A DNA stretch of 3,361 bases from a virus (Duplodnaviria; Heunggongvirae; Uroviricota; Caudoviricetes), in the IMG/VR virus record IMGVR_UViG_2703718871_000023; one strand, given 5' to 3'. The position numbers and the translations under genes were made by a program. A model generated the notes under the pieces. The model saw only the letters and a program-made list of their open reading frames with translations. It had not been told where the DNA came from and did no database searches. Below are positions 80 through 3,361 of this stretch, piece after piece (the stretch's first letter is position 1; every line of letters begins with the position of its first letter).

Positions 80-304
80 ATGAACCAACTCAAACAATCG
101 CAATCACTATCAGATCGCGTAATCCGTGAGGATGAATGCCGTAAGTTAACTGGAGTGTGCCGCACTACACGTTACGAACTGGAGAAAAAAGGGCGCTTTC
201 CGTCACGTCTTAATCTGGGCGGTCGTTCTGTAGGGTGGCTGCTGTCCGAGGTTATGGAATGGGTTAAAAGCAGGGATCGTATTAATTCAGGTAAGGCAGC
301 GTAG
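80..304 (+). CDS. alpA: AlpA-family phage regulatory protein (Vis/excisionase-like winged-HTH DNA binding protein), 74 aa
   Basis: Translation MNQLKQSQSLSDRVIREDECRKLTGVCRTTRYELEKKGRFPSRLNLGGRSVGWLLSEVMEWVKSRDRINSGKAA has the AlpA/Vis layout I recall: TG..R.T.Y helix-turn-helix, then FP...LG.RSVGW...E...W near the C-terminus, at the typical ~70 aa size. I chose ATG 80 over the ORF-track start at 44 because GAGGG (66-70) lies 9 nt upstream of 80, while ATG 44 has no Shine-Dalgarno. Family assignment is from memory, not a search. Confidence 0.85.
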   Translation: MNQLKQSQSLSDRVIREDECRKLTGVCRTTRYELEKKGRFPSRLNLGGRSVGWLLSEVMEWVKSRDRINSGKAA

Positions 305-320
305 GGGGAACATATGACAC

Positions 321-350
321 ATAAAACAAAGGCGACCTGGGGCGGTCGCC
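321..350 (-). terminator. Rho-independent terminator for the minus-strand transcript (GC-rich hairpin followed by a U-tract on the minus strand)
   Basis: Plus strand reads GGCGACC (331-337), TGGGGC (338-343), GGTCGCC (344-350): a 7-bp stem with 6 GC pairs and a 6-nt loop. On the minus strand the hairpin is followed by TTTGTTTTAT (complement of 321-330). On the plus strand it is followed by AATGGGAAAACAC with no U-tract, so it looks unidirectional. It sits about 90 nt past the stop of the minus-strand gene 442-624. Confidence 0.6.
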
Positions 351-397
351 AATGGGAAAACACTAAACATAAGCCCGAACATCATAGCGATTTGCTG

Positions 398-437
398 GCT
401 GGTGGGCAATGTGCTCAGTGTGCTGGCTTGCTGGTGG
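398..437 (+). other. Two tandem Chi octamers (5'-GCTGGTGG-3') in non-coding DNA, embedded in an imperfect direct repeat
   Basis: Exact GCTGGTGG at 398-405 and 430-437, same orientation, 32 bp apart, inside the repeat GCTGGCTGGTGG (394-405) / GCTGGCTTGCTGGTGG (422-437). They lie between the stop of the minus gene (442) and its terminator. Whether they act as Chi sites depends on the host being E. coli-like. Confidence 0.5.
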
Positions 438-441
438 ACTA

Positions 442-624
442 TCAGCCTTTTGGTTCTATGCCTTCTTTGCGTAGCTTGTCACGACAGGCATTTTTAACCC
501 ATGAACTGAAATTACCAGGCCCAGCAACTTCGTTAATTTGTTGCAACAATGTGTCTTCGAAGCGGATGTTTTTCTTTGTGCTGCCAGAGCGATCAAATTT
601 TGGTTTCTCATTTTTTTCTTGCAT
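442..624 (-). CDS. Small basic YlcI/YnfO-like (DUF3950-like) protein, 60 aa; possible small DNA-binding regulator
   Basis: Translation MQEKNEKPKFDRSGSTKKNIRFEDTLLQQINEVAGPGNFSSWVKNACRDKLRKEGIEPKG is protein-like and matches the pattern I recall for prophage YlcI/YnfO proteins (basic N-terminus, KNIRF...I, then G.GNFS.WV..ACR..L). An in-frame TAA lies 5 codons upstream of the single ATG. It has its own terminator (321-350). The RBS is weak (GGTGG about 9 nt upstream). The overlapping plus-strand frame translates to low-complexity sequence. Family name is from memory. Confidence 0.65.
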   Translation of the reverse strand: MQEKNEKPKFDRSGSTKKNIRFEDTLLQQINEVAGPGNFSSWVKNACRDKLRKEGIEPKG

Positions 625-646
625 TGGTACGTACCACCGTTATAAA
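619..646 (+). promoter_or_regulatory. Candidate sigma70-type promoter for the rightward operon (-35 TTGCAT, 16-bp spacer, -10 TATAAA)
   Basis: TTGCAT at 619-624 and TATAAA at 641-646 with a 16-bp spacer that is filled by palindrome copy 1. The predicted start near 653 would put palindrome copy 2 just downstream. The -35 match is weak and this is a by-eye call only. Confidence 0.3.
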
Positions 647-670
647 CTGAAACCCAATGGTACGTACCAT
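625..670. promoter_or_regulatory. Pair of identical perfect palindromes TGGTACGTACCA; candidate operator sites between the divergent minus gene and the plus-strand operon
   Basis: TGGTACGTACCA at 625-636 and 658-669, each its own reverse complement. The second extends to a 14-bp perfect palindrome ATGGTACGTACCAT (657-670). Centres are 33 bp apart. Copy 1 abuts the start codon of the minus gene and lies in the spacer of a candidate rightward promoter. The motif is directly observed; the operator role is inference. Confidence 0.55.
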
Positions 671-769
671 ATTGAAGATACGCAACCATTAAATACAGCG
701 AAGCCCCGCAGTGGTGGAACACTCGCAGGGCTTCTAACCACCAACGATAGCAACAGTATCGAGGTAGCT

Positions 770-970
770 ATGAGAAATCATACCACACACCCGCAAGGGC
801 GGGACTTGCACAACCTGAATAAATTCACCTGGCGTTTTATCGCCCTGAGCACGGCACAACCGCGCGTGATTACCATTGAGGCCACCAGCGAACAGGAAGC
901 ACGCCAGCAATCCCCGGCTGGCTGCGTGATGCTATTCGCTGCCCGTATTCGCCAGGGGGTAGGCTTATGA
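770..970 (+). CDS. Small protein, 66 aa, first gene of the operon; possibly Icd-like host cell division inhibitor family (tentative)
   Basis: ATG 770 is preceded by GAGGT (761-765). The stop TGA 968-970 overlaps the next start ATG 967-969 (ATGA coupling). Translation MRNHTTHPQGRDLHNLNKFTWRFIALSTAQPRVITIEATSEQEARQQSPAGCVMLFAARIRQGVGL recalls Icd-like proteins of P4-like prophages (F.WRF.A ... E.EAR ... FAAR), from memory and unverified. The ORF track reports this frame open from 314, but the upstream part looks non-coding. Confidence 0.5.
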   Translation: MRNHTTHPQGRDLHNLNKFTWRFIALSTAQPRVITIEATSEQEARQQSPAGCVMLFAARIRQGVGL

Positions 971-1200
971 GCCAGGAAATCACACTACAACAGGCAGCAG
1001 AACGCGCCCACCAAATCGAAGTTATTTGCGCACTGGCAGAGGATTACCCTGGCATGATGACCGACAGCGAATCAGGGGCAATCATCGGCTTACTTAAACG
1101 CCTTAGCGGTGAGGTCTGCGTATTCCTGAGCGATGAACAGGAAAGAAGAACGCTTATTTCTAACGAAAAAAAATGCGGAGGGGTACACCATGTGCAATAA
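967..1200 (+). CDS. Hypothetical small acidic protein, 77 aa
   Basis: ATG 967 has GGGGG (955-959) 7 nt upstream. It is start/stop coupled to the ORF before it (ATGA) and overlaps the next gene by 11 nt. Translation MSQEITLQQAAERAHQIEVICALAEDYPGMMTDSESGAIIGLLKRLSGEVCVFLSDEQERRTLISNEKKCGGVHHVQ. No family recognised. It carries an A8 tract (1166-1173) near its 3' end. Confidence 0.5.
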   Translation: MSQEITLQQAAERAHQIEVICALAEDYPGMMTDSESGAIIGLLKRLSGEVCVFLSDEQERRTLISNEKKCGGVHHVQ

Positions 1201-1411
1201 CATCCGTCCGGACGCAGCCGCCGCCGCACTCACTACGCTGATGCACGCGCTTATTGATATTGAATGCACGGCAGAGCTTGCACAAAAGGAAGAACGGGAG
1301 GAATACACATTGTTCGCCCTGGAATGTATCCGATACACCGCCACGCGGTCGCTGAATGACGCTAAAAATATTCTTGTTGCAGATTGTGAAAATGGGGGGG
1401 GTTATGCGTGA
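1190..1411 (+). CDS. Hypothetical small protein, 73 aa
   Basis: ATG 1190 has a strong Shine-Dalgarno GGAGGGG (1177-1183) 6 nt upstream. The ORF-track start at 1133 has no RBS and would overlap the upstream gene by 68 nt. Translation MCNNIRPDAAAAALTTLMHALIDIECTAELAQKEEREEYTLFALECIRYTATRSLNDAKNILVADCENGGGYA. No family recognised. A G8 tract (1394-1401) sits at its 3' end. Confidence 0.5.
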   Translation: MCNNIRPDAAAAALTTLMHALIDIECTAELAQKEEREEYTLFALECIRYTATRSLNDAKNILVADCENGGGYA

Positions 1412-1637
1412 TGATCGTTTTAATTCCCTGAAACAAGAATTTTCCGGCGTTCCTGATGATGCGGCTGATGCGCTTTCGTCAATGCCAGAACTTATTAGAG
1501 CGGCTTTTTTCTTACTTTCCACGAGAGAATATAAATCAACGGGGCTTGATGTACTGAATATCGCCGCCGATTATGCGGAATATGTGGCAGAGGCGCGTTA
1601 CAGAAGAAAATTTCCTGAGGATGTAAGCCATGCGTGA
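1404..1637 (+). CDS. Hypothetical small protein, 77 aa
   Basis: ATG 1404 lies just after the G-run 1394-1401, which can act as a Shine-Dalgarno, and overlaps the upstream stop by 8 nt (ATGCGTGA). In-frame ATG 1392 is an alternative start. Translation MRDDRFNSLKQEFSGVPDDAADALSSMPELIRAAFFLLSTREYKSTGLDVLNIAADYAEYVAEARYRRKFPEDVSHA. No family recognised. Confidence 0.5.
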   Translation: MRDDRFNSLKQEFSGVPDDAADALSSMPELIRAAFFLLSTREYKSTGLDVLNIAADYAEYVAEARYRRKFPEDVSHA

Positions 1638-1863
1638 TATTTACCACGAAACAACAGAACGCGTATTTCTTGCACTTTCTCACAGTGAAAACATGCTGGA
1701 AATATTGCGCATATGGCTTGAAACACTTGGCGACAATGAACGCGACAAACAAAAATCAAGAATTGTCACGGCATTAATAACGCTTCTTGAGCCTGTAATA
1801 ATGGAACTACAAGAAATAGAGACATTGCACGACAGATATAACGAACAGCACACCGGAGAATAA
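1630..1863 (+). CDS. Hypothetical small protein, 77 aa
   Basis: ATG 1630 overlaps the upstream stop with the same ATGCGTGA junction seen at 1404. GAGGA (1616-1620) lies upstream. Translation MRDIYHETTERVFLALSHSENMLEILRIWLETLGDNERDKQKSRIVTALITLLEPVIMELQEIETLHDRYNEQHTGE, predicted mostly helical. No family recognised. Confidence 0.55.
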   Translation: MRDIYHETTERVFLALSHSENMLEILRIWLETLGDNERDKQKSRIVTALITLLEPVIMELQEIETLHDRYNEQHTGE

Positions 1864-1868
1864 AAATA

Positions 1869-2168
1869 ATGAAACTTAAATATTCTGGCTTAACTGCCAG
1901 TGGCAACACTCACCCTAAATTTACGCGCGGTGATATTTACCGCGACCAGTACGGCGGTACGGTAATGATTAAGGGCGTGGCGGGACGGTGCGTAACTTAC
2001 CGCCGTGAAGGTTACGAATATGATTGCGTGATGCCTGTTTATCAGTTCCGGCGTGATTTTTCTCTGGTACAGACCGCGCCGCATAACGTGCCCACCAGCA
2101 GGGAGAAAGCACGCGCCAATATTCAGAAGATGAAAAACATGATTAACGGATTCAGGGGCAAGAAATGA
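1869..2168 (+). CDS. Small protein, 99 aa, possibly DUF4222-like (tentative)
   Basis: ATG 1869 with GGAG (1855-1858) upstream. Its stop TGA 2166-2168 overlaps the ATPase start ATG 2165-2167. Translation MKLKYSGLTASGNTHPKFTRGDIYRDQYGGTVMIKGVAGRCVTYRREGYEYDCVMPVYQFRRDFSLVQTAPHNVPTSREKARANIQKMKNMINGFRGKK. The core (YRD...G.V.I.GV.GR.V.Y.R.GYE..CV.P...F) resembles what I recall of enterobacterial prophage DUF4222 proteins; unverified. Confidence 0.6.
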   Translation: MKLKYSGLTASGNTHPKFTRGDIYRDQYGGTVMIKGVAGRCVTYRREGYEYDCVMPVYQFRRDFSLVQTAPHNVPTSREKARANIQKMKNMINGFRGKK

Positions 2169-3361
2169 AAAGCGCACCGAACTTAAAAAAACAGCCTTAC
2201 GACAAGATGACCGAAGTCATCATTTTTGCGGGTAGTGATGCGTGGGCACATGCGAAACAGTGGCAGGAACAGGACGGGCGACTGGCTGGCGATAATGTGC
2301 CTCCCATTGTGCTGGCTGATGATCAACTGGATGAACTGGCAGACCTGAGAATCATCGACGAGGGGCGCTATTGTGTCCGGCTGTACAAGGCAGGCCACAT
2401 CAGGCCATCAAATATTAATGCCATTGCGCACAAGCTGGCGGCGGCGGGCGTAACTGATGCGAATTATTACCCCGAAGGGATACACAGCCAGAAGCGGGAG
2501 AACTGGCGCGAATATCTGGAACGGGAGCGGGGGAAAAAGCCAGGGGAAGAACACCACCAGCGAAAAACCACGCTACCGATGAGCGTTGGATCTGCCGGAT
2601 ACGACACGCAATTAGATTACGTGGTAAAGGGGATTATTCCGGCATCGTCGCTTTGCAGCATATACGGGGCGAGCGGTTCCTATAAATCATTCCTTGCGGG
2701 TTCGTGGGCGTGTCACGTTTCCACGGGCCGCCAGTGGGGAGGCCGCAGGGTGGCGCATGGCGCTGTTCTCTATGTGGTTGGTGAAGGCGGTATCGGCGTT
2801 CCGCGTCGTGTAAAAGCCTGGGAGGTTGTGCACGGTGAGCAGGTGAAAAATCTGTATCTGGTAAACCGTCCCATCTTTCCGGCGGTCCCGCTTGATGTTG
2901 ATGAAATGGTTATCGCTGCCCGTCAGGTGGAGCGGGAAACGGGTAAACCTGTACGCATGATTATTCTGGATACGCTGGCGCGTTGCTTTGGTGGGAATGA
3001 TGAAAATGATTCCCGTGATATGGGGGCGTTTATCCGTGGTTGTGACGAACTGAAACGACGCACAGGGGCCACGGTGCTGGTGGTTCACCATTCCGGCAAG
3101 GATGAGACGAAAGGCGCGCGCGGTTCCAGTGCATTTCGTGCATCACTGGATGCTGAATACCGGATACGCAGGGAGGACGCAGGAAGCGAAGCGCTGGTTA
3201 TCTCATGCACCAAAATGAAGGACGCGGAGGAACTCAAAGAGGCTGCCTATGATTTGCGGGTGGTGGAGCTTTTTACCGACGCTGACGGGGAGTTAATCAC
3301 GTCGCTGGTGGTGGTGGATAAGCCGCGCCCTCCCGTTGAACTGGAGCGCATCGAGGAGGCA
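2165..3361 (+). CDS. RecA-fold replication ATPase (AAA_25 / RepA-like helicase-type domain), probable satellite replication or primase-associated protein; 3' end truncated by the window (399 codons, no stop)
   Basis: The frame is open from ATG 2165 (AGGGG 6 nt upstream) to the last base of the window, which is why the stop-delimited ORF track does not list it. Motifs: P-loop-like IYGASGSYKSFLAG (2660-2700), Walker-B-like MIILDTLA (2957-2980), and VLVVHHSGKDETKGARGSSAFRASLDAEYRIRRE, which resembles the RepA/AAA_25 sensor region. The first ~160 aa are an unassigned N-terminal region. Confidence 0.85.
   Translation, partial: MKSAPNLKKQPYDKMTEVIIFAGSDAWAHAKQWQEQDGRLAGDNVPPIVLADDQLDELADLRIIDEGRYCVRLYKAGHIRPSNINAIAHKLAAAGVTDANYYPEGIHSQKRENWREYLERERGKKPGEEHHQRKTTLPMSVGSAGYDTQLDYVVKGIIPASSLCSIYGASGSYKSFLAGSWACHVSTGRQWGGRRVAHGAVLYVVGEGGIGVPRRVKAWEVVHGEQVKNLYLVNRPIFPAVPLDVDEMVIAARQVERETGKPVRMIILDTLARCFGGNDENDSRDMGAFIRGCDELKRRTGATVLVVHHSGKDETKGARGSSAFRASLDAEYRIRREDAGSEALVISCTKMKDAEELKEAAYDLRVVELFTDADGELITSLVVVDKPRPPVELERIEEA

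What the first reader, a model, noticed from the sequence alone, without database searches (positions are those of the whole stretch)
619..670. Twin perfect palindromes (TGGTACGTACCA x2, 33 bp apart) between a divergent small regulator gene and the small-ORF operon
Two identical 12-bp perfect palindromes will not occur by chance in 3.4 kb. Their centres are three helical turns apart, which places both sites on one face of the DNA, as expected for a dimer-of-dimers repressor. Copy 1 fills the spacer of the candidate rightward promoter and abuts the start codon of the minus-strand YlcI-like gene; copy 2 sits near the predicted transcription start. This is the layout expected of an immunity or induction switch for the satellite's early operon. 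The binding protein is unknown: it could be the adjacent small protein, AlpA, or a helper-phage or host factor. As RNA, the palindrome would also sit at -1 to -12 of the minus-gene mRNA and could occlude its weak RBS.
Basis: partly seen in the sequence, partly recalled or inferred. Interest (0 to 1): 0.6.

Follow-up and report, generated by a model that had tools for sequence, protein, structure and literature searches.

The report
Twin operators of a satellite repressor
The two identical palindromes are most likely the DNA docking sites of the tiny protein encoded right next to them, which would keep a phage-parasitising island silent; such a repressor has not been described for this class of islands in Gram-negative bacteria.

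Summary
TGGTACGTACCA occurs at 625-636 and 658-669, 33 bp centre to centre, and in none of 200 shuffles.

The pair is conserved upstream of the adjacent 60-aa YlcI/YnfO (DUF3950) gene in about 50 loci from some 25 genera. The proximal site always abuts the ATG. Spacing is 33-35 bp, and 30 bp in two distant subfamilies.

The operator core GGTA-NN-TACC changes together with residues 17-19 of the protein. It is unchanged where the upstream AlpA-like gene is unrelated. The gene plus sites (442-698) move as one cassette between backbones that are capsid-forming PICI satellites.

Best explanation: these are two operators for a probably ribbon-helix-helix repressor. They overlap a rightward early promoter, whose -35 is the reverse complement of the repressor's own ATGCAA, and a leftward repressor promoter.

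Binding, the fold, the promoters and the derepression route are inferred, not shown.

The mechanism is classical, but no repressor has been described for Gram-negative PICIs, so this gives a directly testable candidate. Novelty: new member of a known kind. Interest about 0.55.

The parts
625..636 (.). Operator O1 (proximal), TGGTACGTACCA, core GGTA-CG-TACC. It abuts the start codon of the repressor gene and fills the -35/-10 spacer of candidate P_R.
   Evidence: A site with its centre 5-6 bp before the ATG is kept in about 50 loci.
657..670 (.). Operator O2 (distal), ATGGTACGTACCAT (the 12-bp copy is 658-669). It lies at about +5 to +17 of candidate P_R and contains the -10 of candidate P_L.
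   Evidence: Conserved 33-35 bp from O1 (30 bp in L062 and L073).
442..624 (-). 60-aa YlcI/YnfO-family (DUF3950) protein, the proposed ribbon-helix-helix repressor. Predicted strand around residues 17-23 (KKNIRFE), helices at 25-34 and 39-54.
   Evidence: Substitutions concentrate at third codon positions and the sense frame is the better conserved. Distant family members hit RHH_1, CopG, NikA and MobC. A 33%-identical homologue hits Arc at E=0.038.
619..624 (+). Candidate -35 of rightward early promoter P_R (TTGCAT). It is the reverse complement of the repressor's ATG-CAA.
   Evidence: ATGCAA is invariant in nearly all loci. The O157:H7-type relative has a perfect TTGACA overlapping its ATG. 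The consensus scan did not call it, because it matches only 3 of 6.
641..646 (+). Candidate -10 of P_R (TATAAA), 16 bp after the -35.
   Evidence: TATAAT or TATAAA is at the same 16-bp distance in L010, L011, L013, L017, L018 and L020-L022. It is weaker in other loci.
657..662 (-). Candidate -10 of leftward repressor promoter P_L (TACCAT on the minus strand), inside O2.
   Evidence: Inference from conservation. Not called by the consensus scan.
680..685 (-). Candidate -35 of P_L (TTGCGT on the minus strand), 17 bp from TACCAT.
   Evidence: 'GCAA' is kept at a fixed distance from O2 in about 15 divergent loci whose intervening bases differ. It is absent from the Enterobacter-type group and the O157 type.
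442..698 (.). Exchangeable repressor-operator ('immunity') cassette.
   Evidence: Window 112-848 matches L001 at 98.8%, and 699-3361 matches L067 at 96%. L067-L069 carry other cassettes between the same flanks (390-442 and 698 onward).
331..350 (-). Intrinsic-terminator-like hairpin plus T run on the minus strand, downstream of the repressor gene.
700..769 (+). Structured leader of the controlled operon: hairpin 700-709/725-734, a conserved box TCTAACCACCAAC, and hairpin 745-749/757-761 before the Shine-Dalgarno sequence.
   Evidence: 9 of 13 pairs show compensatory changes in 22 loci. No Rfam family matches.
770..970 (+). First gene of the controlled rightward operon (Icd-like). It is followed by small ORFs, DUF4222 (1869-2168) and a RepA/AAA_25 helicase (2165 onward).
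80..304 (+). AlpA/Vis-family gene. This is context only and is not the operator binder.
   Evidence: Pfam Phage_AlpA 2e-16. Loci with unrelated upstream HTH proteins keep identical operators.

Best explanation
The two palindromes are operator sites O1 (625-636) and O2 (657-670) for the 60-aa protein encoded immediately to their left (442-624, minus strand). That protein belongs to the uncharacterised YlcI/YnfO (DUF3950) family and is probably an Arc/CopG-like ribbon-helix-helix dimer.

Proposed binding: one dimer inserts its two-stranded sheet (residues about 17-23, KKNIRFE) into the major groove at the centre of each GGTA-NN-TACC site.

Proposed promoters: O1 occupies the spacer of a rightward early promoter P_R (TTGCAT-16-TATAAA), whose -35 is the reverse complement of the repressor's own ATG-CAA. 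O2 covers the start region of P_R and contains the -10 of the leftward repressor promoter P_L (TTGCGT-17-TACCAT).

Proposed effect: occupancy would shut off the early operon (structured leader, Icd-like gene, small ORFs, DUF4222, replicase) and limit the repressor's own synthesis.

The gene and its sites form a self-contained specificity cassette that recombines between capsid-forming PICI and PICI backbones.

Shown here: the existence, conservation, fixed position and spacing of the sites; their co-variation with the adjacent protein and not with AlpA; and the cassette mosaicism.

Inferred: the fold, the binding, the promoter positions, repression and autoregulation.

Speculative: derepression, either by a helper-phage factor or by AlpA-driven read-through from the co-directional alpA gene, which runs antisense to the repressor gene.
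For: 1. The sites are not chance.

2. In 54 genome loci plus 7 others, from about 25 genera, a pair of sites lies upstream of the homologous gene. The proximal centre is 5-6 bp before the ATG and spacing is 33-35 bp, or 30 bp in L062 and L073. The 21 bp between the sites are poorly conserved.

3. Protein and operator change together, each protein class having its own operator core:
- STKKN-IRFED: GGTACGTACC
- STMKH: GGTAGTTACC / GGTAACTACC
- STMKN: GGTAGGTACC / GGTACCTACC
- STRRT: GGTTCG[CA]ACC
- a 50%-identical Aliiglaciecola protein: GGTGCGCACC
- a 33%-identical O157:H7 protein (YQMRLP): GGTAATTACC
The invariant Arg21 accompanies the nearly invariant GGT/ACC ends.

4. L002-L004 keep identical operators and a protein from about 90% nucleotide-identical DNA, but have upstream HTH proteins with no similarity to the window's AlpA.

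5. The cassette is mosaic. In the same slot, sister elements carry other small beta-alpha-alpha-looking proteins. Their own repeats sit in the spacer and at +1 of clear TTGAC[AG]-17/18-TAnAnT promoters.

6. Only these two sites occur in a complete 14.1-kb cf-PICI.

7. Fold evidence: AlphaFold gives an extended N-terminus followed by two helices. Distant profile hits include RHH_1 (2e-6), CopG_antitoxin, NikA and MobC. hhalign places N19/R21 on Arc N11/R13. The O157 homologue hits Arc at E=0.038.

8. [quoted passage not shown]
Against: No binding or expression data exist.

Both candidate promoters have weak -35 hexamers (3 of 6) and were not called by the consensus scan. P_L is not conserved in the Enterobacter-type and O157-type groups. 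The P_R -10 is poor in several groups.

The protein-operator classes are few, about 5-6, and are probably clades, so the number of independent co-changes is small. Buttiauxella proteins (STMKN) have a mixed pair of sites.

The repressor gene has no recognisable Shine-Dalgarno sequence. Phage lambda's DUF3950 ORF has no such palindromes, so the family is not always associated with them.
Confidence: 0.7

Rival explanations
1. The two copies act as RNA. They would form the arms of a 12-15-bp hairpin in the 5' leader of the repressor mRNA. Its 3' arm ends at -1 of the AUG, so the hairpin would control translation of a gene that lacks a Shine-Dalgarno sequence.
For: If a leftward transcript starts beyond 670, the fold is a 15-bp stem of -29.3 kcal/mol, z = -4.8. 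Mirrored centre dinucleotides (GG/CC, GT/AC) keep inter-copy complementarity in several groups. GT/GT would still pair through G-U in the leftward RNA. The absence of a Shine-Dalgarno sequence is conserved.
Against: Inter-copy pairing is broken by one or two mismatches in Xenorhabdus (CG/CA, CG/CACA), Buttiauxella (GT/CC) and the STRRT group. What is invariant is the symmetry within each site. The best-conserved candidate promoter for the gene starts between the copies, so the mRNA would hold only one copy. This model does not explain co-variation with the protein's residues 17-19, nor the analogous non-palindromic repeats in sister cassettes.
Confidence: 0.1
2. The sites are bound by a host or helper-phage factor rather than by the adjacent protein. 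One candidate is a GntR/FadR-type host regulator, whose boxes resemble TGGT-N-ACCA. Another is a helper-encoded inducer.
For: Resemblance to PdhR/ExuR-type boxes is recalled from memory and is a lead only. In Gram-negative PICIs induction depends on an unidentified helper function (PMC6092414).
Against: The sites change in step with the adjacent gene across genera and move with it as a cassette. A conserved host factor would not tolerate six different cores. No similar sequence was found in 50,697 phage records.
Confidence: 0.1
3. The sites are AlpA/Vis binding sites through which AlpA activates the early operon.
For: AlpA activates downstream genes in EcCICFT073 (PMC6092414). alpA lies 320 bp upstream.
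Against: L002-L004 have identical palindromes but upstream HTH proteins with no detectable similarity to the window's AlpA. L001 shares both alpA and the cassette, so the association is not obligatory.
Confidence: 0.03
4. The pair is a DNA-level structural or recombination element, such as a cruciform, a cassette-exchange site or replication iterons, rather than a transcription operator.
For: The arms are inverted repeats of each other (I1). The cassette boundary at about 698 is only 30 bp away.
Against: The exchange junctions lie in the conserved flanks (390-442 and 698 onward), not at the palindromes. The sites sit on promoter-like elements and abut a start codon in every locus.
Confidence: 0.05

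Closest known systems
Arc and Mnt repressors and their operators in the immI region of phage P22 (ribbon-helix-helix)
   Same: Both involve a protein of about 50-60 aa with an N-h-R-h strand motif followed by two helices. Both have short symmetric operators overlapping divergent or overlapping promoters, and both autoregulate. hhalign puts N19/R21 on Arc N11/R13.
   Different: Statistical support for homology is weak. Here there are two separate 12-14-bp palindromes 30-35 bp apart, rather than one 21-bp operator bound by a tetramer. Here the context is a satellite, not a phage.
Tn10 tetR/tetA control region (own knowledge)
   Same: Both have two palindromic operators about 30 bp apart on overlapping divergent promoters, so that one repressor controls both its own gene and the divergent operon.
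   Different: TetR is a helix-turn-helix protein with a small-molecule inducer. No inducer is known here.
Stl/Rpr master repressors of Gram-positive PICIs (SaPIs)
   Same: Both have a repressor gene divergent from the excision and replication operon of a phage satellite. In SaPIs it keeps the island silent until a helper acts (PMC6092414).
   Different: Stl is a larger helix-turn-helix protein inactivated by a helper protein. Here the protein is 60 aa and probably ribbon-helix-helix. In these elements AlpA is known as the activator, and no anti-repressor is known.
P4 immunity (CI RNA of the Rfam C4 family, with seqA/seqC) and P1 c4-icd-ant
   Same: The location is the same: between the alpA/vis-like gene and the early or replication operon. 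An Icd-like gene follows, as in P1.
   Different: No C4 or isrK match was found in the window, although the same tool finds both in P4. Control here appears to be protein-operator based, with a different structured leader RNA.
Lambdoid immunity regions (imm434, imm21 and others)
   Same: In both, repressor plus operators behave as an exchangeable specificity module between conserved flanks.
   Different: The repressor fold, size and operator layout all differ. The cassette here is only about 260 bp.

Membership tests
YlcI/YnfO family (Pfam DUF3950 PF13132; NCBIfam NF041551) | Score above the curated cut-off of the family models | tested here: met
   Pfam 33.1 bits against a cut-off of 25. NCBIfam 31.1 bits against a cut-off of 30. 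All 19 members of A4 and 68 of the 101 members of A7 hit DUF3950.
Ribbon-helix-helix (Arc/MetJ/CopG) DNA-binding proteins | Sequence membership in an RHH family model | tested here: inconclusive
   The window protein hits no RHH model. RHH_1 reaches E=0.12 in 1 of 19 close relatives. Among distant profile hits, RHH_1 reaches 2.3e-6, and CopG_antitoxin, NikA-like and MobC also appear. The O157 homologue hits Arc at E=0.038, below the cut-off. hhalign to the Arc family gives 3-15% probability in the expected register.
Ribbon-helix-helix (Arc/MetJ/CopG) DNA-binding proteins | Strand-helix-helix fold forming an intertwined dimer | tested here: inconclusive
Ribbon-helix-helix (Arc/MetJ/CopG) DNA-binding proteins | Binds short symmetric or repeated operator sub-sites through the strand residues | not testable with these tools
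   Only indirect evidence: operator cores co-vary with residues 17-19.
Repressor-operator switch on overlapping divergent promoters | Operators overlap the core elements of the regulated promoters | tested here: inconclusive
   The conserved TTGCAT-16-TATAA[AT] and TTGC[GT]T-17-TACCAT elements overlap O1 and O2, but the consensus scan did not call either promoter. Sister cassettes show the same layout on strong promoters. No transcript 5' ends are available.
Capsid-forming PICI / Gram-negative PICI satellites | int, alpA and replication genes plus own capsid, portal, protease, connector and terminase genes in a 10-16 kb island | tested here: met
   This is met for elements carrying the identical twin sites. 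L072 (14.1 kb) has the full set. L067 and L073 have capsid genes downstream. The window itself shows only alpA, the cassette, the early genes and the RepA helicase.
P4/P1-type RNA immunity (Rfam C4 RF01695, isrK RF01394) | Covariance-model match upstream of the early or icd genes | tested here: not met
   No match even at E up to 10 in 600-1000. P4 served as a positive control: C4 74.9 bits and isrK 60.8 bits.
AlpA/Vis binding sites | Sites co-occur and co-vary with the AlpA-type protein | tested here: not met
   Identical sites occur with unrelated upstream HTH proteins.

The most novel reading that the evidence does not exclude
The small DUF3950/RHH-like proteins with twin operators would be the missing master repressors of Gram-negative PICIs and cf-PICIs. 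This includes an unannotated 57-aa ORF in the O157:H7 (EcCIEDL933-like) element. They would come in many exchangeable specificity types that set satellite 'immunity'. Helper-dependent induction would work by overriding this repressor, for example through AlpA-driven read-through transcription that runs antisense to the repressor gene and across its operators. AlpA would therefore not be acting as a simple activator.
Probability: 0.3. Interest if true: 0.75.

Novelty: new member of a known kind. Interest (0 to 1): 0.55.

Why it matters
Since 2018 the accepted picture has been that Gram-negative PICIs, including the capsid-forming ones that spread between species, are switched on by the activator AlpA, and that whether they have a global repressor is unclear (PMC6092414).

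A conserved cassette of about 260 bp, holding a tiny repressor-like gene and two matched operators on the early promoter, offers a concrete and testable candidate for that repressor.

It would also give a first function to the DUF3950 (YlcI/YnfO) family, whose members are found in many E. coli genomes and in phage lambda itself.

It would explain the mosaic 'dynamic zone' of these islands as exchange of specificity modules.

It also flags an annotation gap: in O157:H7 the homologous ORF is not annotated, and a pseudogene is called across it.

Tried and rejected
Structure route:
- Two AlphaFold monomer models, with 7 and 111 sequences, gave only moderate confidence.
- The afdb50 library was unavailable.
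- PDB sequence and profile searches gave only chance hits.

RNA families: the window has no C4 or isrK match, so the P4/P1 RNA-immunity reading was dropped.

AlpA as binder was rejected, because identical sites occur with unrelated upstream HTH proteins.

An RNA or cruciform hairpin as the main constraint was rejected, because inter-copy pairing is not systematically kept.

Helper-phage copies of the site: there was no match to 612-700 in 50,697 phage records.

The simple promoter scan called nothing in 600-700. The promoter assignments therefore rest on conservation only.

An attempt to locate EcCICFT073 in the CFT073 genome by coordinates hit the lambdoid prophage at icd instead and was abandoned.

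The long + strand ORF 314-970 was examined as a possible real overlapping gene. It is at least partly a shadow ORF, because its third codon positions coincide with those of the minus-strand gene. Its N-terminal 150 aa match no family.

Full report
**Observation.** The window holds TGGTACGTACCA at 625-636 and again at 658-669, so the copies are 33 bp apart. Copy 2 is a 14-bp palindrome, ATGGTACGTACCAT, at 657-670. No exact copy appeared in 200 dinucleotide-preserving shuffles. Copy 1 touches the start codon (624-622) of a minus-strand 60-aa ORF (442-624). That ORF passes the curated cut-offs of Pfam DUF3950 and NCBIfam YlcI_YnfO_N.

**Surroundings.** To the left lies an AlpA/Vis-family gene (80-304, Pfam 2e-16). 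To the right lies a co-directional string of genes: Icd-like (770-970), four small ORFs, DUF4222 (1869-2168) and a RepA/AAA_25 helicase (2165 onward). A minus-strand terminator-like hairpin (350-331) follows the small gene.

**What kind of element this is.**
- The right part of the window (699-3361) is 96% identical to an E. coli island that continues into SSB, PerC and a major capsid gene.
- The left part (112-848) is 98.8% identical to another island with a different primase.
- Three IMG/VR contigs carry the exact twin motif. One of them (14.1 kb) encodes integrase, the cassette, a DUF927 primase, SSB, capsid, prohead protease, portal, connector, HNH, TerS and TerL.
- That gene set is the capsid-forming PICI (cf-PICI) layout described in bioRxiv 10.1101/2022.09.08.507074.
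- No complete E. coli genome in the collection holds the window's exact combination, so the window is a mosaic.

**Conservation of the sites.** I collected 54 loci from one-genome-per-species contigs using the protein alignment, and further loci by exact protein look-up. They span Escherichia, Pantoea, Erwinia, Serratia, Hafnia, Pluralibacter, Photorhabdus, Xenorhabdus, Proteus, Buttiauxella, Enterobacter, Citrobacter, Kluyvera, Leclercia, Kosakonia, Scandinavium and others, out to Aliiglaciecola.

Nearly all have two sites of the form GGT-N4-ACC upstream of the gene. The few exceptions are loci with an insertion, a truncation or a disrupted start. The proximal centre is 5-6 bp before the ATG, and spacing is 33 bp (group 1), 34-35 bp (Enterobacter-type and Buttiauxella) or 30 bp (Aliiglaciecola). 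The 21 bp between the sites and the sequence beyond them are much less conserved. In 5-14 kb of flanking DNA, including a complete island, no further site occurs.

**Who binds.** The core changes in step with the protein segment just before the invariant IRFE motif:
- STKKN goes with GGTACGTACC.
- STMKH goes with GGTAGTTACC / GGTAACTACC.
- STMKN goes with GGTAGGTACC / GGTACCTACC.
- STRRT goes with GGTTCG[CA]ACC.
- The 50%-identical Aliiglaciecola protein goes with GGTGCGCACC.

An O157:H7 island of the EcCIEDL933 type has an unannotated 57-aa minus-strand ORF, MSTPLEKRSPPYQMRLPEDFRAQLEEAAKADGDTSLATWIKRVLRKELQQRGIEPKG. It is 33% identical to the window protein (pairwise E = 3e-9). It has twin GGTAATTACC sites 30 bp apart, the proximal one abutting its ATG.

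By contrast, three E. coli islands with identical palindromes and about 90% nucleotide-identical small genes have upstream HTH proteins with no detectable similarity to the window's AlpA. The sites therefore follow the small gene, not AlpA.

Caveat: there are only five or six classes and they are probably clades, so few independent co-changes underlie the pattern. Buttiauxella also has a mixed pair of sites.

**Cassette behaviour.** Homology to other islands breaks at about 442 and about 698. Between the same flanks, sister islands carry other small proteins, for example MATKAVNAKSQTVAARVPHEV...GES...FVTAALKREV. PGAP also names these YlcI/YnfO, but they show no BLASTP similarity to the window protein. 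They come with their own repeats: GTGTTCAACAC three times, TGTAAG-type, and GTGGGCCACAC twice. These repeats lie in the spacer and just after the -10 of clear TTGAC[AG]-17/18-TAnAnT rightward promoters. This is the behaviour of an immunity module.

**Fold.** AlphaFold monomer models give an extended N-terminal segment, then helices at 25-34 and 39-54, at pLDDT 67-73. That is what a ribbon-helix-helix monomer looks like without its partner. Fold searches found nothing and PDB sequence searches found nothing real.

Sequence evidence is suggestive rather than significant:
- The family is small, with 119 clusters at 50% identity among 1.84 billion proteins.
- Its distant members include proteins that hit RHH_1 (2.3e-6), CopG_antitoxin, NikA-like and MobC.
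- hhalign against an Arc-family alignment always gives the register N19/R21 = Arc N11/R13, at only 3-15% probability.
- The O157 homologue hits Pfam Arc at E = 0.038.
- The variable residues 17 and 19 and the invariant R21 fall on alternate positions of the putative strand. In Arc these positions face the DNA (established knowledge of Arc-operator structures; inference here).

**Promoters.** These are inferred from conservation only.

Rightward P_R is TTGCAT (619-624), 16 bp, TATAAA (641-646).
- The -35 is the reverse complement of ATG-CAA, which is invariant in almost every locus, including the most distant.
- In the O157 type a different second codon yields a perfect TTGACA over the ATG.
- TATAAT or TATAAA sits 16 bp downstream in many group-1 loci but is poor in others.
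- O1 fills the spacer, and O2 lies at about +5 to +17.

Leftward P_L is TTGCGT (685-680), 17 bp, TACCAT (662-657, inside O2).
- 'GCAA' is kept at this fixed distance in about 15 divergent loci whose intervening bases differ.
- It is absent from the Enterobacter-type and O157-type groups.

The consensus scan called neither promoter, because both -35 hexamers match only 3 of 6. If both are real, they are overlapping divergent promoters with starts near 653 and 650. Bound protein at O1 and O2 would block both. This is functionally like the Tn10 tet control region (own knowledge).

**Spacing.** The conserved 30-35 bp spans -50 to +120 degrees of helical phase. Strict same-face geometry is therefore not conserved. 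The fixed distances imposed by the two promoters explain the spacing at least as well as dimer-dimer contact does.

**RNA rival.** If both copies were transcribed leftward, they would form a 15-bp stem ending at the AUG (-29.3 kcal/mol, z = -4.8). Mirrored centres (GG/CC, GT/AC) are compatible with that. However, other groups have direct (GT/GT), mixed (GT/CC) or mismatched (CG/CA) centres, and the candidate P_L starts between the copies. I keep this only as a minor rival, or as an added layer of control.

**Comparison with known systems.** P4 controls the equivalent region with the CI RNA. The Rfam C4 and isrK models find both RNAs in P4 but find nothing in the window. Gram-positive PICIs use the divergent Stl/Rpr repressor. 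[quoted passage not shown] The cf-PICI preprint does not mention a repressor. A survey of PICI organisation describes a 'dynamic zone' with Bro-network proteins and immunity RNAs (PMC10111431). I found no paper on the function of YlcI, YnfO or DUF3950. The mechanism proposed here is classical. Its assignment to this protein family and to this class of satellites appears to be new.

**How induction might pass through this switch (speculative).** alpA and the early operon are co-directional and the repressor gene lies between them on the other strand. The terminator at 350-331 works only leftward. AlpA-stimulated transcription could therefore read through, run antisense to the repressor gene, sweep the operators and enter the early operon. 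Alternatively, a helper protein could inactivate the repressor. Neither was tested.

**Verdict.** The class of mechanism is ordinary, but the candidate is useful because it makes an open question about Gram-negative PICIs directly testable.

Noticed in passing
window 700-769 (hairpin 700-709/725-734; box 733-745; hairpin 745-749/757-761): There is a conserved structured leader at the head of the rightward operon, shared by all cassette types. In 22 loci, 9 of 13 predicted pairs show compensatory changes. It matches no Rfam family, although P4's C4 and isrK RNAs are detected by the same tool. It could be a new regulatory or immunity-type RNA upstream of the icd-like gene.
   Followed up: partly
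window 314-970 (+): A 218-aa open frame runs antisense through the small repressor gene, across both palindromes and the leader, in frame with the Icd-like gene. It stays open (500-1584 nt) in all group-1 relatives. Third codon positions coincide with those of the minus-strand gene, so it is at least partly a shadow ORF. Only its Icd-like C-terminus matches a family. PGAP annotates it as an 'Icd-like' or 'ash family' pseudogene in several genomes.
   Followed up: partly
L073 2630-2803 (-) (E. coli O157:H7 DEC4E, NZ_CP038398.1): An unannotated 57-aa RHH-like ORF, homologous to the window protein, has twin GGTAATTACC sites and a perfect TTGACA over its start codon. It lies in an EcCIEDL933-like cf-PICI. 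RefSeq instead calls a pseudogene across the region.
   Followed up: partly
L065 200-394 (phage lambda J02459, about 48303-48112, minus strand): Phage lambda itself carries an unannotated 64-aa DUF3950 ORF (MSTKNRTRRTTTRNIRFPNQ...) between the lysis region and cosR. It has an Arc-like NIRFP strand motif but no twin palindromes upstream. Its function is unknown.
   Followed up: partly
window 390-442: The left flank of the cassette is conserved between islands with different cassettes (94% to L069). It contains direct repeats GCTGGCTGGTGGGCAAT / GCTTGCTGGTGGACTAT, 32 bp apart. It may be a recombination flank or a binding site.
   Followed up: no
alignment A7 (distant DUF3950-like representatives): 13 of 101 distant family representatives are 110-160 aa long and hit the Pfam 'Recombinase' domain downstream of the DUF3950-like N-terminus. 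This suggests fusion of this DNA-binding module to other functions.
   Followed up: no
L013 3332-3398 (-): An Rfam int-alpA RNA (RF02996, 41.6 bits) lies in the Photorhabdus relative between the integrase and alpA. The window starts too late to contain the equivalent region.
   Followed up: no
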